The notes beneath the pieces were generated by a model that saw only the letters and a program-made list of their open reading frames with translations, did no database searches and had not been told where the DNA came from. The position numbers were made by a program, and so were the translations under genes. Shown piece after piece: positions 189 through 6,026 of a stretch of 6,933 bases of DNA. Every line of letters begins with the position of its first letter. Positions within the stretch are counted from its first letter, which is position 1. The stretch is from a virus (taxonomy: Duplodnaviria; Heunggongvirae; Uroviricota; Caudoviricetes): IMG/VR virus record IMGVR_UViG_2548876700_000016; one strand, given 5' to 3'.

Positions 189-422
189 TTATTCTCCGGT
201 GTGCTGTTCGTTATATCTGTCGTGCAATGTCTCTATTTCCTGCAACTCATTTATTACAGGCTCAAGAAGCGTTATTAATGATGTAATAATCCGCGTTTTT
301 TTTGCATTACGTTCATTATCGCCAAAGGATTCAAGGCACATCCGCAATATTTCGTACATACCTTCAGCGTAAGCAAGGGCACTAAATGCGCGGTCTATTG
401 TTTCAAGATAAATATCACGCAT
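189..422 (-). CDS. Hypothetical small protein (77 aa)
   Basis: ORF-track ORF. The upstream gene's stop (TAA, 426-424) is 1 nt from this ATG (422-420), and a GGGGA Shine-Dalgarno lies inside the upstream gene's 3' end: classic translational coupling. No recognisable family. Confidence 0.5.
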   Translation of the reverse strand: MRDIYLETIDRAFSALAYAEGMYEILRMCLESFGDNERNAKKTRIITSLITLLEPVINELQEIETLHDRYNEQHTGE

Positions 423-423
423 A

Positions 424-645
424 TTAATCCCCGTCCGTTGTTTTTCTTAAAACAGCTTCTGTCACGAAATCAGCATAGTTAGCGGCAATATCAAGAATAT
501 TTAGCCCTGTACCTCTGTGCTCATCAGTGCAAAGAAAGAAAAAAGCCACCCGCATAATTTCAGATATTGACGAAAGCGCATCAGCCGCATCATCAGGAAC
601 GCCGGAAAATTCTTGTTTCAGGGAATTAAAACGATCATCACGCAT
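424..645 (-). CDS. Hypothetical small protein (73 aa)
   Basis: ORF-track ORF. ATG at 645-643 preceded by GGGAGGGGGGG with about 7 nt spacing; its start overlaps the 3' end of the upstream 618-863 gene by 28 nt in another frame. No recognisable family. Confidence 0.5.
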   Translation of the reverse strand: MRDDRFNSLKQEFSGVPDDAADALSSISEIMRVAFFFLCTDEHRGTGLNILDIAANYADFVTEAVLRKTTDGD

Positions 646-863
646 AACCCCCCCTCCCCATTTTCACAATCAGCAACAAGAATATTTTTAGCGTCATTCA
701 GCGACCGCGTGGCGGTGTATCGGATGCATTCCAGGGCGAACAATGTGTATTCTTCCCGTTCTTCCTTTTGTGCAAGCCCTGCTGTGCATTCAATATCAAT
801 AAGCGCATGCATCAGCGTAGTGAGCGCGGCGGCGGCTGCGTCCGGCGTGGTTTTATTGTGCAT
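618..863 (-). CDS. Hypothetical small protein (81 aa from the internal Met; the track ORF extends to 893)
   Basis: ATG at 863-861 with GGGGGA 5 nt upstream; this start overlaps the last codons of the 853-1320 gene by 8 nt. The same stop/SD/ATG arrangement is repeated at 1313-1320 for the paralogous upstream gene. The first Met of the track ORF (893) has no SD. Confidence 0.35.
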   Translation of the reverse strand: MHNKTTPDAAAAALTTLMHALIDIECTAGLAQKEEREEYTLFALECIRYTATRSLNDAKNILVADCENGEGGLCVMIVLIP

Positions 864-1320
864 AGGTTTCCCCCTGACGAATACGGGCGACAAAAATCAG
901 ATGTGCGTGCGGCAGCTGGGCGCGGGCTTCGCGTTCTGTTGCTGCCGTGACGGTAAAGAGTGAGGTTTGTTTTTCCTGGCACTGCATAAAGCGCCAGACA
1001 AAATAAGGGCGTGCGGATACAGCCATGTGAAAGGCTCCCAGATGAATTTTAAGGAGTCTCGCTACTACGCTGTCAAACATGGTGGCGAGACGTAACAGGG
1101 TTGACAGACTGGTCATCTGGAAACCAGCGAGCACAAAGGCTCCCCCGTTACGCCCCGCCATAATGCGGGTATGGGTAGGTTTACGGACACAAAAAAACCG
1201 CTTATCGGATGTGGGCGGCTGTCCGCCAGATGTATTCAGGCTGTCAAACCCGGTCGCCATGTGGGCGACGGGGGAAGCATACAGCCCCGTGATAATTTTT
1301 TGCAAGCGGTTTTTACGCAT
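853..1320 (-). CDS. Hypothetical protein (155 aa) whose C-terminal 57 aa are paralogous to the 67-aa protein at 1313-1516; may alternatively be expressed as a standalone 57-aa protein from the internal ATG at 1026
   Basis: Continuous ORF. ATG at 1320-1318 overlaps the upstream gene's stop by 8 nt with a GGGG SD. The internal ATG at 1026-1024 has its own GGGAG SD about 8 nt upstream. The C-terminal segment ...YFVWRFMQ...ATEREARAQ...LIFVARIRQG aligns with ...YIWRFIAL...ATSEQEARQQ...VFAARIRQG of the 1313-1516 protein, with synonymous codon differences (cgc/cgt, gcc/gca) that support this frame. Confidence 0.45.
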   Translation of the reverse strand: MRKNRLQKIITGLYASPVAHMATGFDSLNTSGGQPPTSDKRFFCVRKPTHTRIMAGRNGGAFVLAGFQMTSLSTLLRLATMFDSVVARLLKIHLGAFHMAVSARPYFVWRFMQCQEKQTSLFTVTAATEREARAQLPHAHLIFVARIRQGETYAQ

Positions 1321-1516
1321 GATGTGACCCCTGACGAATACGGGCAGCGAATACCATCACGCAGCCAGCCGGAGATTGCTGGCGTGCTTCCTGTTCGCTG
1401 GTGGCCTCAATGGTAATCACGCGCGGTTGTGCCGTGCTCAGGGCGATAAAACGCCAGATGTATTTATTCAGGTTGTGCGAGTCCCGCCCTTGCGGGTGTG
1501 TGGTATGATTTCTCAT
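1313..1516 (-). CDS. Hypothetical small protein (67 aa), first gene of the minus-strand small-gene operon
   Basis: ATG at 1516-1514 with GAGGT 4 nt upstream. It is the C-terminal 67 codons of the 354-aa track ORF. Paralogous to the C-terminus of the 853-1320 protein. Sits directly downstream of the divergent control region. Confidence 0.55.
   Translation of the reverse strand: MRNHTTHPQGRDSHNLNKYIWRFIALSTAQPRVITIEATSEQEARQQSPAGCVMVFAARIRQGSHHA
1501..1509 (+). promoter_or_regulatory. Candidate extended -10 promoter element (TGgTATGAT) on the plus strand
   Basis: Sequence tggtatgat fits the extended -10 consensus TGnTATAAT with one mismatch. It lies about 45 nt upstream of the terminator hairpin at 1553-1597 and inside the first codons of the minus-strand gene. 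No convincing -35, which is common for extended -10 promoters. Confidence 0.3.
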
Positions 1517-1552
1517 AGCTACCTCGATACGCTTTCTATCGTTGGTGGTTAG

Positions 1553-1597
1553 AAGCCCTGCGAGTGGTAACGACACTTGCGGGGCTTTGCTTTTTAC
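1553..1597 (+). terminator. Rho-independent terminator-like hairpin, plus-strand specific
   Basis: AAGCCCTGCGAGTG (1553-1566) pairs with CACTTGCGGGGCTT (1574-1587): 14 bp with two G-U wobbles that would be A-C mismatches in the minus-strand RNA. 7-nt loop, followed by TGCTTTTTA. Confidence 0.5.
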
Positions 1598-1612
1598 TGT
1601 ACCTACTGATAT

Positions 1613-1656
1613 TGTACGTACGTAACAGCAATGATAATAGGAGTTACGTACGTACA
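1613..1656. promoter_or_regulatory. Perfect 14-bp inverted repeat, candidate operator for the Arc-like repressor
   Basis: TGTACGTACGTAAC (1613-1626) and GTTACGTACGTACA (1643-1656), separated by 16 bp. The spacer contains the AGGAG Shine-Dalgarno (1639-1643) and the right arm abuts the ATG at 1656. A candidate minus-strand promoter (TACAAT / TTATCA) overlaps the arms. Confidence 0.55.
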
Positions 1657-1847
1657 TGTCAACATTAAAGCGCGATAAATCGCCACGCGGTGAGGGATGG
1701 TCTCCAACCTTCCAAATCAGAATCAGTAAAGAGCTACGCCAACAAGTAAATGAGGCGGCAACTTCTGACGGTCTAACCCTTGGTAACTGGTTTAAAGAAT
1801 TAGCTAGGGCAGAACTAAAGCGGCGCGGCATAGAGCCAAAAGGTTGA
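1656..1847 (+). CDS. Arc/Mnt-family ribbon-helix-helix DNA-binding protein (63 aa)
   Basis: PTFQIRISKELRQQVNEAATSDGLTLGNWFKELARAELKRRG aligns position by position with the P22 Arc core PQFNLRWPREVLDLVRKVAEENGRSVNSEIYQRVMESFKKEG (beta-strand F-x-L/I-R, then two helices). AGGAG SD at 1639-1643, 12 nt from the ATG. Confidence 0.75.
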   Translation: MSTLKRDKSPRGEGWSPTFQIRISKELRQQVNEAATSDGLTLGNWFKELARAELKRRGIEPKG

Positions 1848-3472: not shown

Positions 3473-3509
3473 AGCATACTGATAATGCTTATAAATATAT
3501 CAGTATGCT
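3473..3509. promoter_or_regulatory. Perfect 12-bp inverted repeat between the orphan gene and alpA; candidate operator or terminator
   Basis: AGCATACTGATA (3473-3484) and TATCAGTATGCT (3498-3509), separated by a 13-nt AT-rich spacer. Lies 22-58 nt downstream of the 309-aa gene's stop and about 80 nt upstream of the alpA start. Confidence 0.45.
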
Positions 3510-3530
3510 ATAGGAGTATATGAGTAAGGC

Positions 3531-4460
3531 TTACTGTGTTCTTTCGCTCGGCCTCTTATGCGCATTGTTTAATATTGCTGCTATTTTCGTTTCTGTTTTT
3601 ATTGGCAATTCACCATTGATGAACCAGTCAGGTCTGGCGATCAACTCACGGGCCCAGGCAGAATAGTTAATAGTTCCATCTGTTTTTCTGCAACTCTCAT
3701 TAAAAGCATTTTGCTGCTCTTCTTTGAAGCGCATGGCTACCATTAAAATTTGCTCTCGATTTCTTGCATGTCTTTCAGCAGAATGATGAACAATTTCATT
3801 GCCATTCATCTTATGAGGTTCTACAAATTCAATATCATCTGTCAGCGTGAAATAATCGCCACCACAGTCAAGGAGCCGCCTTATATCCTGAGCAGTAATC
3901 CACAAATCGTTTATAGAGATTTTATTTTTGAATACTTGATCGTCTTCTTCATCATAATCGCTATCTTCGCCAACCATTAAAAGCTGTACGGCGGGATTAT
4001 CAGTTTCTGGATGGCACGGGGTTAATTCAAAACCACTTAGGGCATACTCTCCAAAATTTTGTAGCTCTTCTAATCCGCTCCAAAGACGCCACAACCCATA
4101 AGCCTTACCAATAGAACTGAAACACCCATTTTCTGTATCTTGACCAAATAAAGGCACGTGAATCGTTTCTTCCGTTTCCTCATTGTAATCGCATCTGTAG
4201 AGATGAAGCCTGGAAAATTCAGTAATATTGTTTCCCATCATGGATGTGGTGGAGTTTGCCTTTCTGGTATCGAACCAGTCGCATGCAGATTTGCTGTCAG
4301 TTCTCATATATAAAACAGCGCGAGCATCAAACAAATTTAGACATAAAGATATTTTTTTAGTAACACCTAAATTAATCAGGTCGCTAATCTCACAACCCAG
4401 CAATCTCGACGCACGTTCAATATTGCAGTATTGAAAAGGTATTTTAATGTCGTTAGCCAT
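3531..4460 (-). CDS. Hypothetical protein (309 aa), AT-rich orphan cargo gene of unknown function
   Basis: ORF-track ORF with GAGGG SD 7 nt upstream of ATG at 4460-4458. Visibly more AT-rich than the flanking int and alpA/rha genes. N-terminal stretch IERASRLLGCEISDLINLG looks HTH-like; central acidic stretch EDSDYDEEDD. No P-loop, nuclease or other catalytic motif recognised by eye. Confidence 0.7.
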   Translation of the reverse strand: MANDIKIPFQYCNIERASRLLGCEISDLINLGVTKKISLCLNLFDARAVLYMRTDSKSACDWFDTRKANSTTSMMGNNITEFSRLHLYRCDYNEETEETIHVPLFGQDTENGCFSSIGKAYGLWRLWSGLEELQNFGEYALSGFELTPCHPETDNPAVQLLMVGEDSDYDEEDDQVFKNKISINDLWITAQDIRRLLDCGGDYFTLTDDIEFVEPHKMNGNEIVHHSAERHARNREQILMVAMRFKEEQQNAFNESCRKTDGTINYSAWARELIARPDWFINGELPIKTETKIAAILNNAHKRPSERTQ

Positions 4461-4497
4461 TGCGCTGCCCTCAACGCCCCTAAATTAATTTGCGAGC

Positions 4498-4522
4498 CAA
4501 GCGGGTAGGGTTTCCCGCTTTT
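4498..4522. other. Short hairpin in the int/orphan intergenic region, weak terminator candidate
   Basis: AAGCGGG (4499-4505) / CCCGCTT (4514-4520) with an 8-nt loop. The plus-strand tail is TTTTCGG; the minus-strand tail has no T-run. Confidence 0.25.
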
Positions 4523-4553
4523 CGGTTGGCCGACCTAGGCCCGCAATATCAGT

Positions 4554-5947: not shown

Positions 5948-5964
5948 AGTACGGCATGAACTAA
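5948..5964 (+). other. fis: Displaced 3'-terminal fragment of fis (..YGMN-stop): candidate att core and right boundary of the integrated element
   Basis: TAC GGC ATG AAC TAA at 5950-5964 encodes YGMN-stop, the C-terminus of Fis as I recall it. An in-frame TGA at 5944-5946 and unrelated upstream sequence show that the rest of fis is not here. Downstream is the native-looking terminator and yhdJ. Confidence 0.5.
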
Positions 5965-5990
5965 TTCAGGTTAGCTAATTGCTTGATTAA

Positions 5991-6026
5991 AAGGCGCTAC
6001 TCGGCATGGGGAAGCGCCTTTTTTAT
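5991..6026 (+). terminator. Rho-independent terminator (the native fis terminator in its chromosomal context)
   Basis: AAGGCGCT (5991-5998) / AGCGCCTT (6013-6020), 8-bp perfect stem with a 14-nt loop, followed by TTTTTTAT. Confidence 0.7.

What the first reader, a model, noticed from the sequence alone, without database searches (positions are those of the whole stretch)
853..1516. Paralogous small-protein pair, one copy fused in frame to an upstream 98-aa segment, sharing an 18-bp perfectly identical block
The 67-aa protein (1313-1516) and the C-terminal 57 aa of the 853-1320 ORF align (W-R-F, A-T-x-E-x-E-A-R, F-x-A-R-I-R-Q-G) and show synonymous codon differences, so both are probably coding. 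Yet the 18 nt CCCCTGACGAATACGGGC (871-888 and 1329-1346) is perfectly identical amid otherwise diverged DNA. That block encodes ARIRQG and also supplies the Shine-Dalgarno for the overlapping downstream gene, so it is under dual constraint. The second copy has its own good SD and ATG (1026) in frame inside the longer ORF, raising the possibility of two protein isoforms (155 aa and 57 aa) from one frame.
Basis: seen in the sequence. Interest (0 to 1): 0.5.

Follow-up and report, generated by a model that had tools for sequence, protein, structure and literature searches.

The report
Satellite-phage immunity switch with nested genes
The two small look-alike genes are cell-division-inhibitor (Icd/Kil) genes flanking a known antisense-RNA "immunity" gene of a phage satellite in E. 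coli, so the finding is a well-preserved example of a known switch, not a new protein fusion.

Summary
All features lie on the minus strand, and the second copy of the 18-nt block is 1328-1345, not 1329-1346. Both small ORFs belong to the Icd/Kil family.

The "98-aa upstream segment" is not a protein domain. It carries an internal promoter, the a1/b1 target and IsrK-like terminator, the C4/CI antisense RNA gene, and the a2/b2 target that abuts the icd#2 Shine-Dalgarno. The C4 loops co-vary with both targets across relatives.

The locus is the early-operon immunity region of a fis-integrated P4-like satellite (PICI) in E. coli. Its layout matches phage P4 kil/eta, where a short Icd-like gene sits nested in a long frame that runs through the RNA gene.

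- **Long frame:** it stays open in 26 of 27 distinct relatives and in 68 of 71 P4-like loci. It is closed in all 34 P1-like phage loci. Its amino-acid sequence is not conserved.
- **Two products from one frame:** this is plausible, with translation itself as the likely function rather than the protein.
- **18-nt block:** it encodes the family motif ARIRQG plus the Shine-Dalgarno of the overlapping downstream gene. Relatives show only synonymous variants in it, so exact identity is not required.

This is a new member of a known kind, of modest interest.

The parts
1634..1662 (-). Strong sigma-70-type promoter (TTGACA-17-TATTAT) for the minus-strand operon. Proposed regulated upstream promoter, playing the role of P4 PLL.
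   Evidence: 11 of 12 consensus matches. Its function as a promoter is inferred.
1613..1656 (.). Perfect 14-nt inverted repeat, TGTACGTACGTAAC / GTTACGTACGTACA, bracketing the -10 of that promoter. Probable operator.
   Evidence: repeat I3: 100% complementary, 16 nt between the arms. The operator role is inferred.
1313..1516 (-). icd#1, a 67-aa Icd/Kil-family ORF with its own Shine-Dalgarno (GAGG, 1525-1522). No C4 gene or a/b target lies upstream of it.
   Evidence: NF033153, 69.8 bits against a cut-off of 25; phrog_6196, 1e-45. pN/pS is 0.48 among 38 distinct orthologues.
1328..1345 (-). 18-nt block, copy 1. On the mRNA it reads GCCCGUAUUCGUCAGGGG, encoding ARIRQG of icd#1. Its 3' CAGGGG is the Shine-Dalgarno for ATG 1320.
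   Evidence: The junction CAGGGGTCACATCATGCGTAA is conserved in relatives.
853..1320 (-). Long eta-like ORF of 155 codons. Its ATG overlaps the icd#1 stop (ATGCGTAA). It runs through the internal promoter, a1/b1, the terminator, C4 and a2/b2, and ends as icd#2.
   Evidence: Zero stops in this frame against 4 and 7 in the other two; only 3.1% of dinucleotide shuffles are open. Open in 26 of 27 distinct relatives, with compensated -1/+1 indels. PGAP annotates a 153-aa orthologue.
1276..1305 (-). Internal promoter TTGCAA-18-TATGCT. Positional homologue of P1 promoter P1c4 (formerly P51b) and of P4 PLE.
   Evidence: The sequence aligns with the annotated P1 -10 TATAGT directly upstream of a1b1. 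Largely conserved across relatives: both hexamers are nearly invariant, while spacer positions vary. Only 8 of 12 consensus matches, so the scan did not list it. Inferred.
1233..1282 (-). c4-a1b1 motif. a1 is TTGACAG at 1247..1241; b1 is CATCTGG at 1232..1226.
   Evidence: RF03163, 46.8 bits against a gathering score of 46.7. Co-variation of a1 and b1 with the C4 loops.
1191..1269 (-). IsrK/SeqA-like leader RNA ending in a hairpin plus a U7 terminator (U run at 1197..1191).
   Evidence: RF01394, 35.2 bits, below the gathering score of 50. Same position as in P1 and P4.
1078..1165 (-). C4/CI-type antisense RNA gene. Loop b' is CCAGAUGA (1120..1113); a' is CUGUCAA (1107..1101).
   Evidence: RF01695, 72.6 bits against a gathering score of 45; own covariance model, 102 bits. 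Fold of -47 kcal/mol.
1035..1076 (-). a2 (TTGACAG, 1076..1070) and b2 (TCATCTGG, 1045..1038). b2 overlaps the icd#2 Shine-Dalgarno GGGAG (1039..1035).
   Evidence: D2, I7. Predicted C4:b2 duplex is -22 kcal/mol over 13 bp and covers the Shine-Dalgarno. Pairing is kept in 99.3% of cells, with 68 double-change cells, and 0 of 500 shuffles reach this.
853..1026 (-). icd#2, a 57-aa Icd/Kil-family ORF and the equivalent of P4 kil. It is the first translatable gene on transcripts from the internal promoter and the presumed target of C4 repression.
   Evidence: NF033153, 56 bits. pN/pS is 0.33 among orthologues. The Shine-Dalgarno is overlapped by b2.
871..888 (-). 18-nt block, copy 2. Encodes ARIRQG of icd#2 and of the long ORF. 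Its 3' CAGGGG(G) is the Shine-Dalgarno for ATG 863.
618..863 (-). Downstream 81-aa ORF. Its start overlaps the icd#2 end by 11 nt. It is the first of a chain of overlapping small ORFs (645..424, 422..189) leading towards replication genes in relatives.
   Evidence: (phrog_5146 / phrog_2512). In strains ST130 and RM14516 the same chain runs into DUF4222 and a RepA-family helicase.

Best explanation
Window 600-1700 (minus strand) is the immunity and early-operon control region of a P4-like phage satellite (PICI) integrated at the 3' end of fis in E. coli.

Gene order on the mRNA:
1. An operator-flanked strong promoter.
2. A leader, then icd#1 (67 aa, Icd/Kil family).
3. A long ORF whose ATG overlaps the icd#1 stop.
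4. Inside that ORF, in order: a constitutive-type internal promoter, the a1/b1 target with an IsrK/SeqA-like terminator, the C4/CI antisense RNA, and the a2/b2 target with b2 on the Shine-Dalgarno of icd#2.
5. icd#2 (57 aa), the last third of the long ORF.
6. A chain of overlapping small ORFs that leads to replication genes.

Proposed mechanism, by analogy with P1 immI and P4 immunity:
- In the quiescent island, the internal promoter makes a transcript from which C4 RNA is processed.
- C4 pairs through its a' and b' loops with a2/b2 and blocks icd#2 translation.
- The untranslated RNA is then terminated, so the replication genes stay off.
- When the upstream promoter fires, ribosomes translate icd#1 and re-initiate at ATG 1320.
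- They read through the terminator hairpin, C4 and a2/b2. This prevents both RNA pairing and termination, and the whole operon is expressed.
- The 155-aa product is therefore a by-product of a translated leader, like P4 eta. The 57-aa product corresponds to P4 kil.

The 18-nt block is the conserved Icd C-terminal motif ARIRQG. Its last six bases, CAGGGG, are the Shine-Dalgarno for whichever gene is translationally coupled downstream.

Shown here: the identity of all parts, the antisense co-variation, conservation of the open frame, and the coupling junctions. Inferred: promoter activity, RNA processing, termination, and actual translation of the long frame.
For: Parts and their identity:
- Rfam hits above gathering score for C4 and c4-a1b1 lie inside the 98-codon segment.
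- The a', b', a1, b1, a2 and b2 sites were located by homology with the annotated P1 sites.
- b2 overlaps the icd#2 Shine-Dalgarno, with a predicted duplex of -22 kcal/mol.

Antisense function:
- Across 20 distinct relatives, b':b2 and a':a2 stay paired in 99.3% of cells, with 68 double-change cells. No shuffle of 500 reaches this, and slid controls pair in only 29-52%. b1 and a1 behave the same way.
- At least 8 b specificities and 2 a alleles are present.

Match to P4:
- P4 has the same layout. Its 214-codon frame holding eta (8812..8168; eta proper is 197-199 aa) contains a1b1/isrK and CI/C4 and ends in Kil.
- Kil is Icd-like, at 76 bits.
- PMC10111431 summarises the P4 mechanism: an internal constitutive promoter, Kil as a truncated Eta, Eta coupled to the upstream gene, and Eta translation preventing termination.

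Open frame:
- It has 0 stops against 4 and 7 in the other frames, and only 3.1% of shuffles are open.
- It is open in 26 of 27 distinct relatives despite indels, which are always compensated.
- It is open in 68 of 71 distinct P4-like loci and in the second C4 cassettes of relatives.
- It is closed in 34 of 34 P1-like loci and in 3 of 3 other loci from larger contigs (27-55 kb).
- An ATG overlapping the icd stop is present in 26 of 27 relatives (all but L026) and in about half of the distant Icd genes whose junction was printed.

Context:
- Integrase, AlpA and the fis att block TACGGCATGAACTAA at 5950-5964 lie beside yhdJ, which is 100% identical to E. coli.
Against: - No expression data exist for this locus.
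- The relatives with open frames fall into only about three independent lineages, so the counts overstate independence.
- One relative, L026, has the frame broken by a 1-nt deletion in the T7 run.
- PGAP calls the ST130 copy 'frameshifted'.
- The long frame shows no amino-acid conservation. That fits translation-only function but equally fits no function.
- The N-terminal part does not match Pfam Phage_ASH, unlike P4 Eta.
- The internal promoter is a weak consensus match, 8 of 12.
- The primary P4 paper (Forti et al. 1999) could not be read here. Its content comes from the summary in PMC10111431 and from my memory.
Confidence: 0.8

Rival explanations
1. P1-like reading. Only the 57-aa icd#2 and the 67-aa icd#1 are made. 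The 155-codon frame is open by descent and chance, ATG 1320 is a vestigial coupled start, and translation of the RNA region has no role.
For: - In P1 the same RNA elements carry in-frame stops and the system works without a long ORF.
- The long frame has pN/pS of 1 or more and no third-position excess.
- Relatives are only 88-100% identical in this stretch, so ORF retention is weak evidence.
- L026 has the frame broken.
Against: - The frame is open in three separate satellite lineages and closed in both non-satellite lineages (P1-like, and the larger-contig loci L051/L055/L056).
- Two different compensated -1/+1 indel pairs restore the frame.
- Only 3.1% of shuffles are open.
- The ATG-over-stop junction is conserved even where the intervening bases differ, as in L020 and L042.
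- P4 eta translation is reported to be functional (PMC10111431).
Confidence: 0.3
2. The 155-aa product is a true two-domain fusion protein whose 98-aa N-terminal part has a function of its own as a protein.
For: - The frame is open and conserved.
- PGAP annotates a 153-aa protein in strain RM14516.
- Pfam holds an 'Ash protein family' built on equivalent P4-type translations.
Against: - The segment is fully accounted for by RNA and promoter elements.
- Variation sits in the antisense specificity sites, not at third codon positions.
- pN/pS in this frame is 1.2-3.6, higher than in the other two frames.
- Relatives read about 7 to 37 codons of it in a shifted frame.
- No Pfam or PHROG family matches residues 1-98.
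Confidence: 0.05
3. The 18-nt identity is maintained at the nucleic-acid level. It would act as a short homology 'linker' at the 3' edge of Icd cassettes, where recombination or gene conversion shuffles cassettes and downstream modules, rather than reflecting coding plus Shine-Dalgarno constraint alone.
For:
- It sits at the end of three diverged Icd paralogue types and is followed by at least 14 different continuations.
- In relatives, similarity to icd#1 often begins only 42 nt before its stop.
- Chimeric icd#1/icd#2 genes (L043, L044) and tandem C4-icd cassettes exist.
- Outside the block the paralogues are saturated at synonymous sites.
Against: - The scan selected for exact matches, so it cannot measure conservation.
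- In the sets not selected on the block, both copies show synonymous variants and often differ from each other.
- Eighteen nucleotides is short for RecA-dependent exchange.
- The block shows no special complementarity to C4: -13.5 kcal/mol against a shuffled mean of -15.8.
Confidence: 0.3

Closest known systems
Phage P4 immunity region (PLL/PLE promoters, seqA, CI RNA, seqC, nested kil/eta genes)
   Same: - The order is the same: a1b1/isrK-like element, then C4/CI RNA, then an Icd-like gene, all inside one long frame.
- The short product, Kil, belongs to the same family, NF033153.
- The promoter equivalent to P4 PLE lies inside the long frame.
- The long-frame start overlaps the stop of the upstream gene.
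- The downstream gene overlaps the end of kil.
- Both are satellite elements with a P4-type integrase and AlpA.
   Different: - The gene coupled upstream is a second Icd-like ORF, not the AlpA/Vis homologue ORF88.
- The RNA is closer to P1 C4 than to P4 CI: 78% DNA identity to P1, and the a' loop is identical to P1's.
- The N-terminal translation does not match Pfam Phage_ASH.
- The long frame is 155 codons here against 197-199 in P4.
- The replication module is a RepA-family helicase in relatives, not the alpha primase.
Phage P1/P7 immI operon (c4-icd-ant)
   Same: - The C4 RNA is homologous, with a'/b' loops, a1b1 and a2b2 targets, and b2 at the icd ribosome-binding site.
- icd overlaps the next gene.
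- Immunity types differ through loop and target co-variation, as between P1 and P7.
   Different: - P1 has in-frame stops inside c4, so it has no long nested ORF.
- P1 has no icd copy upstream of a1b1.
- The downstream gene in P1 is the antirepressor Ant. Here small ORFs of unknown function lead to replication genes.
Gifsy-1 isrK-orf45-anrP locus of Salmonella (PMC4825925)
   Same: - An IsrK/SeqA-like leader sRNA with its own terminator.
- An ORF (orf45) whose nucleotide sequence is conserved while its amino-acid sequence is not (the paper's own statement).
- Translational coupling to the downstream gene through overlapping stop and start codons.
   Different: - In Gifsy-1 the sRNA activates translation.
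- The isrK match here is below the Rfam gathering score (35.2 against 50).
- No Icd-like gene is described there.
fis-integrated Gram-negative PICIs (PMC10111431)
   Same: - The att identity block TACGGCATGAACTAA lies next to yhdJ.
- The integrase, AlpA and 'Bro zone' come in the same order.
- That paper notes C4 and isrK Rfam hits in such zones.
   Different: The paper does not describe the tandem Icd arrangement, the nested frame in these PICIs, or the range of C4 specificities, as far as the passages I read show.

Membership tests
Icd/Kil family (NCBIfam NF033153, host cell division inhibitor Icd-like) | Profile score above the curated cut-off of 25 bits | tested here: met
   icd#1 scores 69.8 bits, icd#2 56 bits, and the 155-aa ORF 52.3 bits over residues 107-149. 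P1 Icd scores 52.6 and P4 Kil 76.1 with the same model.
Icd/Kil family (NCBIfam NF033153, host cell division inhibitor Icd-like) | The C-terminal tail encodes the Shine-Dalgarno and the overlapping start of a translationally coupled downstream gene | tested here: met
   Both copies show it: CAGGGG-N7-ATG overlapping the stop at 1320, and CAGGGGG-N6-ATG at 863. The same pattern appears in distant homologues from other genera.
Icd/Kil family (NCBIfam NF033153, host cell division inhibitor Icd-like) | Inhibits host cell division, or kills when over-expressed | not testable with these tools
The activity is known for P1 Icd and P4 Kil from the literature (annotation; PMC10111431).
C4/CI antisense-RNA immunity module (P1 immI, P4 immunity) | C4 RNA with the conserved three-way fold | tested here: met
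   RF01695 scores 72.6 bits against a gathering score of 45, matching the full model. Minimum free energy is -47 kcal/mol.
C4/CI antisense-RNA immunity module (P1 immI, P4 immunity) | Upstream a1/b1 and downstream a2/b2 targets complementary to loops a' and b', with b2 at the ribosome-binding site of the first gene | tested here: met
   All sites were located. RF03163 scores 46.8 against a gathering score of 46.7. Co-variation was never reached by any of 500 shuffles for either target pair. b2 overlaps the GGGAG Shine-Dalgarno.
C4/CI antisense-RNA immunity module (P1 immI, P4 immunity) | C4 is processed from the leader of the transcript it controls, and repression leads to premature termination | not testable with these tools
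   This needs RNA mapping and termination assays.
P4-type nested kil/eta genes | The short Icd-like gene is the 3' part of a longer frame that spans the a1b1 and C4 DNA | tested here: met
   The P4 layout was confirmed.
P4-type nested kil/eta genes | The long frame is kept open among relatives | tested here: met
   Open in 26 of 27 distinct relatives with compensated indels, and in 68 of 71 P4-like loci. The P1-like contrast is 0 of 34.
P4-type nested kil/eta genes | [quoted passage not shown] | tested here: inconclusive
   The ATG overlaps the icd#1 stop (ATGCGTAA) behind a Shine-Dalgarno. TTGCAA-18-TATGCT aligns with the annotated P1 promoter. Actual coupling and promoter activity were not measured. 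The upstream partner is Icd-like, not AlpA-like as in P4.
P4-type nested kil/eta genes | The N-terminal part matches Pfam PF10554 (Phage_ASH), as P4 Eta does | tested here: not met
   The 155-aa ORF has no Pfam hit at E <= 0.1. P4 Eta scores 82 bits and a relative's 185-aa ORF 43 bits. The difference reflects a P1-type rather than P4-type RNA sequence.
P4-type nested kil/eta genes | Translation of the long frame suppresses immunity-specific termination | not testable with these tools
   This needs nonsense and suppressor experiments of the kind reported for P4.
fis-integrated PICI | att identity block TACGGCATGAACTAA at the fis terminus, with yhdJ on the far side, plus a tyrosine integrase and AlpA | tested here: met
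   The block is at 5950-5964 (consensus quoted in PMC10111431). yhdJ is 100% identical to E. coli. The integrase matches PF00589 and PF13356, and AlpA matches PF05930.

The most novel reading that the evidence does not exclude
icd#1 may not be just a spare paralogue. It could be a toxin-like Icd gene that escapes C4 control and is instead governed by its own cis-antisense small RNA.

- A strong intrinsic terminator on the plus strand (1552-1598) sits in the icd#1 leader.
- It is more stable on the plus strand in 48 of 49 distinct homologous leaders and is kept through compensatory changes.
- A candidate extended -10, TGGTATGAT (1501-1509), would give an RNA of about 85 nt complementary to the icd#1 Shine-Dalgarno and start codon.

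The locus would then hold two different RNA regulators over two Icd paralogues. The conserved 18-nt cassette edge would allow such units to be shuffled among satellites.
Probability: 0.18. Interest if true: 0.5.

Novelty: new member of a known kind. Interest (0 to 1): 0.27.

Why it matters
The result turns an apparent "fusion protein" into a correctly parsed regulatory switch. It has three practical consequences:

- **Annotation:** genome pipelines label the long frame as a 153-155-aa "Icd-like protein", or as a frameshifted pseudogene. They also maintain an "Ash" protein family that is largely the translation of RNA genes.
- **Generality of the P4 device:** the nested-frame arrangement of P4 (kil inside eta) extends to fis-integrated PICIs that carry a P1-type C4 RNA.
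- **Immunity types:** these islands carry many C4 loop and target specificities, which probably define mutually compatible immunity types among co-resident satellites and phages.

None of this changes the known principle.

Tried and rejected
- **The single genome-contig scan, using icd#1:** it gave only 10 loci from other genera. None had a C4 hit, so they were useless for the nested-frame question but useful for codon comparison.
- **18-mer as a C4 target or structured element:** rejected. The duplex with C4 is -13.5 kcal/mol against a shuffled mean of -15.8, and the local folds are unremarkable.
- **icd#1 site AAUACAUCUGGCG as a co-varying third C4 target:** not supported. Relatives with other b' loops keep the same YIW residues (codons not read).
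- **Protein similarity between the 155-aa ORF and P4 Eta outside the Icd part:** BLASTP found none. The Pfam search of the 155-aa ORF found nothing.
- **Primary P4 paper (PMC94026):** not held in the library.
- **Literature search for tandem Icd/C4 arrangements:** nothing beyond PMC10111431.
- **Tools left unused:** structure prediction and the large protein-database searches were not run, because family membership was already clear.
Full report
**1. The observation**

All features lie on the minus strand. ORFs 1516..1313 (67 aa, here icd#1) and 1320..853 (155 aa) exist. No dinucleotide shuffle out of 200 gives a match even with two mismatches allowed.

The 67-aa protein aligns with the last 49 residues of the long ORF with score 98. 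Shuffles gave 22.6 +/- 4.4, and 0 of 2000 reached that score. Both hit NCBIfam NF033153, "host cell division inhibitor Icd-like".

In a codon alignment the block is GCC CGT ATT CGT CAG GGG (A R I R Q G), with every synonymous site identical. Outside it, synonymous sites are saturated (pS 0.75) and pN is 0.46. Both genes behave as coding sequences among their orthologues, with pN/pS of 0.33 for the 57-aa unit (icd#2) and 0.48 for icd#1.

**2. What the "98-aa segment" is**

A scan against Rfam places known RNA elements inside it:
- the C4 antisense RNA (RF01695, 72.6 bits against a gathering score of 45) at 1165..1078;
- the c4-a1b1 target motif (RF03163, 46.8 against 46.7) at 1282..1233;
- an IsrK-like match (35 bits, below threshold) at 1269..1191, ending in a hairpin and a U7 run.

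Comparison with the annotated P1 immI region located the individual sites:

| Site | Sequence on the RNA | Window position |
|---|---|---|
| a1 | TTGACAG | 1247..1241 |
| b1 | CATCTGG | 1232..1226 |
| b' loop of C4 | CCAGAUGA | 1120..1113 |
| a' loop of C4 | CUGUCAA | 1107..1101 |
| a2 | TTGACAG | 1076..1070 |
| b2 | TCATCTGG | 1045..1038 |

b2 runs into the GGGAG Shine-Dalgarno of ATG 1026. The predicted C4:b2 duplex is 13 bp, -22 kcal/mol, and covers that Shine-Dalgarno.

The sequence TTGCAA-18-TATGCT (1305..1276) aligns with the P1 promoter P1c4 (formerly P51b), directly upstream of a1b1. The segment therefore consists of an internal promoter, a leader with terminator, an antisense RNA gene and its targets.

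**3. Is the RNA system functional?**

A viral-contig scan with icd#2 returned 48 loci. Twenty-seven distinct relatives share the a1b1-C4-icd#2 unit at 88-100% identity. In an alignment of these nearly all variation falls in the six specificity sites. I count at least 8 b specificities and 2 a alleles, each matched at b1, b' and b2 or at a1, a' and a2.

Formal counts for b':b2 plus a':a2:
- 99.3% of cells are paired;
- 68 cells have changes on both sides;
- 0 of 500 shuffles reach these values;
- controls with the partner slid by 1-3 columns pair in only 29-52% of cells.

The b1 and a1 pairs behave the same way. This is the pattern expected for P1/P7-type heteroimmune antisense systems.

**4. 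The long frame**

Phage P4 has the same anatomy. ORF 8812..8168 (214 codons, the frame holding eta) contains a1b1/isrK and CI/C4 and ends with Kil. Kil scores 76 bits on the Icd-like model.

PMC10111431 summarises the P4 mechanism, citing Forti et al. 1999:
- a constitutive promoter lies inside eta;
- CI is processed from its transcript;
- Kil is a truncated Eta;
- Eta translation prevents termination.

I could not read the primary paper.

In the window the long frame has 0 stops, against 4 and 7 in the other two frames. Only 3.1% of dinucleotide shuffles are open. Its ATG overlaps the icd#1 stop (ATGCGTAA) behind AGGGG. The frame is open in 26 of 27 distinct relatives.

Two different indel combinations each restore the frame: -1 at b1 with +1 twenty bases later, or -1 at b1 with +1 in the b' loop. 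The second combination is why PGAP calls the ST130 copy "frameshifted". Only L026 is broken, by a 1-nt deletion in the T7 run.

Counts in other lineages:

| Lineage | Long frame open |
|---|---|
| This PICI family | 26 of 27 distinct |
| Second C4 cassettes in relatives (185-aa and longer ORFs) | open |
| P4-like loci | 68 of 71 distinct |
| P1-like phage loci | 0 of 34 |
| Other loci from larger contigs, 27-55 kb (L051, L055, L056) | 0 of 3 |

Against a protein role, variable sites in the 98 codons fall 22/26/16 by codon position, and pN/pS in that frame is 1.2-3.6, higher than in the other two frames. No family matches residues 1-98.

My reading is that the frame is kept open for translation, not for the protein. 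The Gifsy-1 orf45 case is a second precedent for that kind of ORF (PMC4825925).

**5. The 18-nt block**

Across the wider Icd family the C-terminal tail ...Q-E/G-V-x-H-A* encodes CAGGAG or CAGGGG followed by CATGnnTAA. That is the Shine-Dalgarno and overlapping start of the next gene.

The first twelve bases are not constrained at the nucleotide level:
- distant homologues use different codons or residues there;
- close relatives show CGT/CGC, ATT/ATC and GCC/GCT/GCG variants in either copy, all synonymous;
- the two copies often differ by 1-2 nt in those relatives.

The block is not complementary to C4.

The exact 18-mer is nevertheless common. It closes three diverged Icd paralogue types and is followed by at least 14 different continuations. 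In many relatives, similarity to icd#1 starts only 42 nt before its stop. The block therefore marks a mosaic boundary. Homogenisation by recombination is a live secondary explanation for the exact identity. I could not test it properly.

**6. Context and model**

The island carries a tyrosine integrase, AlpA, a Rha-like regulator and a small ribbon-helix-helix gene. It ends at the fis att block TACGGCATGAACTAA (5950-5964) beside yhdJ, which is 100% identical to E. coli. It is a fis-integrated PICI.

A strong promoter, TTGACA-17-TATTAT (1662..1634), is bracketed by a perfect 14-nt inverted repeat and faces icd#1. Downstream of icd#2 a chain of overlapping small ORFs leads, in relatives, to DUF4222 and a RepA-family helicase.

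The model has two states:
- **Quiescent.** The internal promoter supplies C4. C4 blocks icd#2 translation, and the untranslated RNA terminates.
- **Induced.** The upstream promoter drives icd#1. Ribosomes re-initiate at 1320 and translate through the terminator hairpin, C4 and a2/b2. This overrides immunity and opens the replication operon.

The parts, the co-variation, the coupling junctions and the frame conservation are shown here. Promoter activity, RNA processing, termination and translation of the long frame are inferred.

**7. Comparison and novelty**

The locus works like P4 immunity while using a P1-type C4 RNA. It differs from P4 in four ways:
- the upstream coupling partner is a second Icd-like gene rather than an AlpA homologue;
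- it lacks the Phage_ASH signature;
- its replication genes are different;
- in relatives, whole C4-icd cassettes occur in tandem or collapse into chimeric icd genes (L043 and L044).

PGAP already names both genes Icd-like, and Rfam finds the RNAs. I rate this a new member of a known kind, of modest interest.

**8. Side observation**

The icd#1 leader contains a plus-strand terminator-like hairpin (1552-1588, with a U-rich tail to about 1598).
- It is far more stable on the plus strand: -28.4 against -16.3 kcal/mol, z = -5.8.
- The plus orientation is the more stable one in 48 of 49 distinct homologous leaders, and the helix is kept through many compensatory variants.

This suggests an unannotated plus-strand RNA antisense to the icd#1 start. 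It is the basis of the "novel case" and remains untested.

Noticed in passing
window 1552-1598 (+), with a possible -10 at 1501-1509 (+): A plus-strand intrinsic-terminator-like hairpin (15 bp, including 3 G.U pairs, then UUUGCUUUUU) lies inside the leader of the minus-strand icd operon. It is more stable on the plus strand in 48 of 49 distinct homologous leaders, and the helix is kept through compensatory changes. A plus-strand RNA of about 85 nt starting near 1516 would be antisense to the icd#1 Shine-Dalgarno and start codon. There is no Rfam match.
   Followed up: partly
window 1224-1236 and 1452-1464 (flanks 1230-1244 and 1462-1476): A 13-nt exact repeat, CGCCAGATGTATT, is shared by the b1 target and icd#1 codons K-Y-I-W-R. 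With one 3-nt indel the similarity extends to about 21 of 22 bases, so the 5' part of icd#1 resembles an a1-b1 leader. It does not appear to co-vary with b' in relatives, so it is more likely a trace of a past recombination than a third C4 target.
   Followed up: partly
L020, L021, L023, L028, L030, L032, L039, L042 (C4 hits at about 1884-1971 and 2362-2449); L043 and L044: Some relatives carry two complete C4-icd cassettes in tandem. There the upstream long ORF (185 aa or more) itself begins with an Icd-like N-terminus. Other relatives have a single chimeric icd made of the icd#1 5' part and the icd#2 3' part, with no C4.
   Followed up: partly
alignment A4 (window 1014-1326 and 21 relatives): At least eight different b'-loop specificities and two a' alleles are present, each perfectly matched at both target sites. 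This implies many immunity types among otherwise near-identical islands.
   Followed up: yes
L004 (phage P4) 8168-8812; L030 31-588: Pfam PF10554, the 'Ash protein family', matches P4 Eta residues 37-161. This is the eta-frame translation of the a1b1/isrK and CI RNA genes, so much of that protein family is a translation of RNA genes.
   Followed up: partly
L001 (E. coli ST130) 3480-3941: The orthologue that PGAP flags as a 'frameshifted' Icd-like pseudogene has a -1 indel at b1 and a +1 indel in the C4 b' loop. The frame is restored about 37 codons later and has no stop, so the pseudogene call is probably an artefact of changes in antisense specificity.
   Followed up: partly
window 4477-4545 (-): An int-alpA RNA (RF02996, 61.2 bits against a gathering score of 35.8) lies between the integrase gene and the 309-aa ORF.
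   Followed up: no
window 1613-1656 and 2221-2237: GTACGTACGTAAC-type palindromes flank the strong operon promoter. A related near-palindrome, CGTACGTTAAACGTACG, lies about 600 bp away, downstream of the small plus-strand genes. These are possible operator sites for the ribbon-helix-helix (YlcI/YnfO-like) protein or the Rha-like protein.
   Followed up: no
window 5950-5964 and 5983-6024: The fis-PICI att identity block TACGGCATGAACTAA is followed by the fis terminator and yhdJ. yhdJ is 100% identical to several E. coli genomes, so the host is E. coli, although no complete genome in the collection carries this exact island (best hit 95% identity over 88% of the query).
   Followed up: partly
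L005-L014 and L045-L062: Icd-like genes of other genera (Cedecea, Edwardsiella, Rahnella, Enterobacter and others) end in ...Q-E-V-x-H-A*, encoding AGGAGG. In most of those whose junction was printed, a start codon overlaps the end of the gene. The icd#1-type genes among them (L005-L014) have no C4 gene within 2.5 kb.
   Followed up: yes
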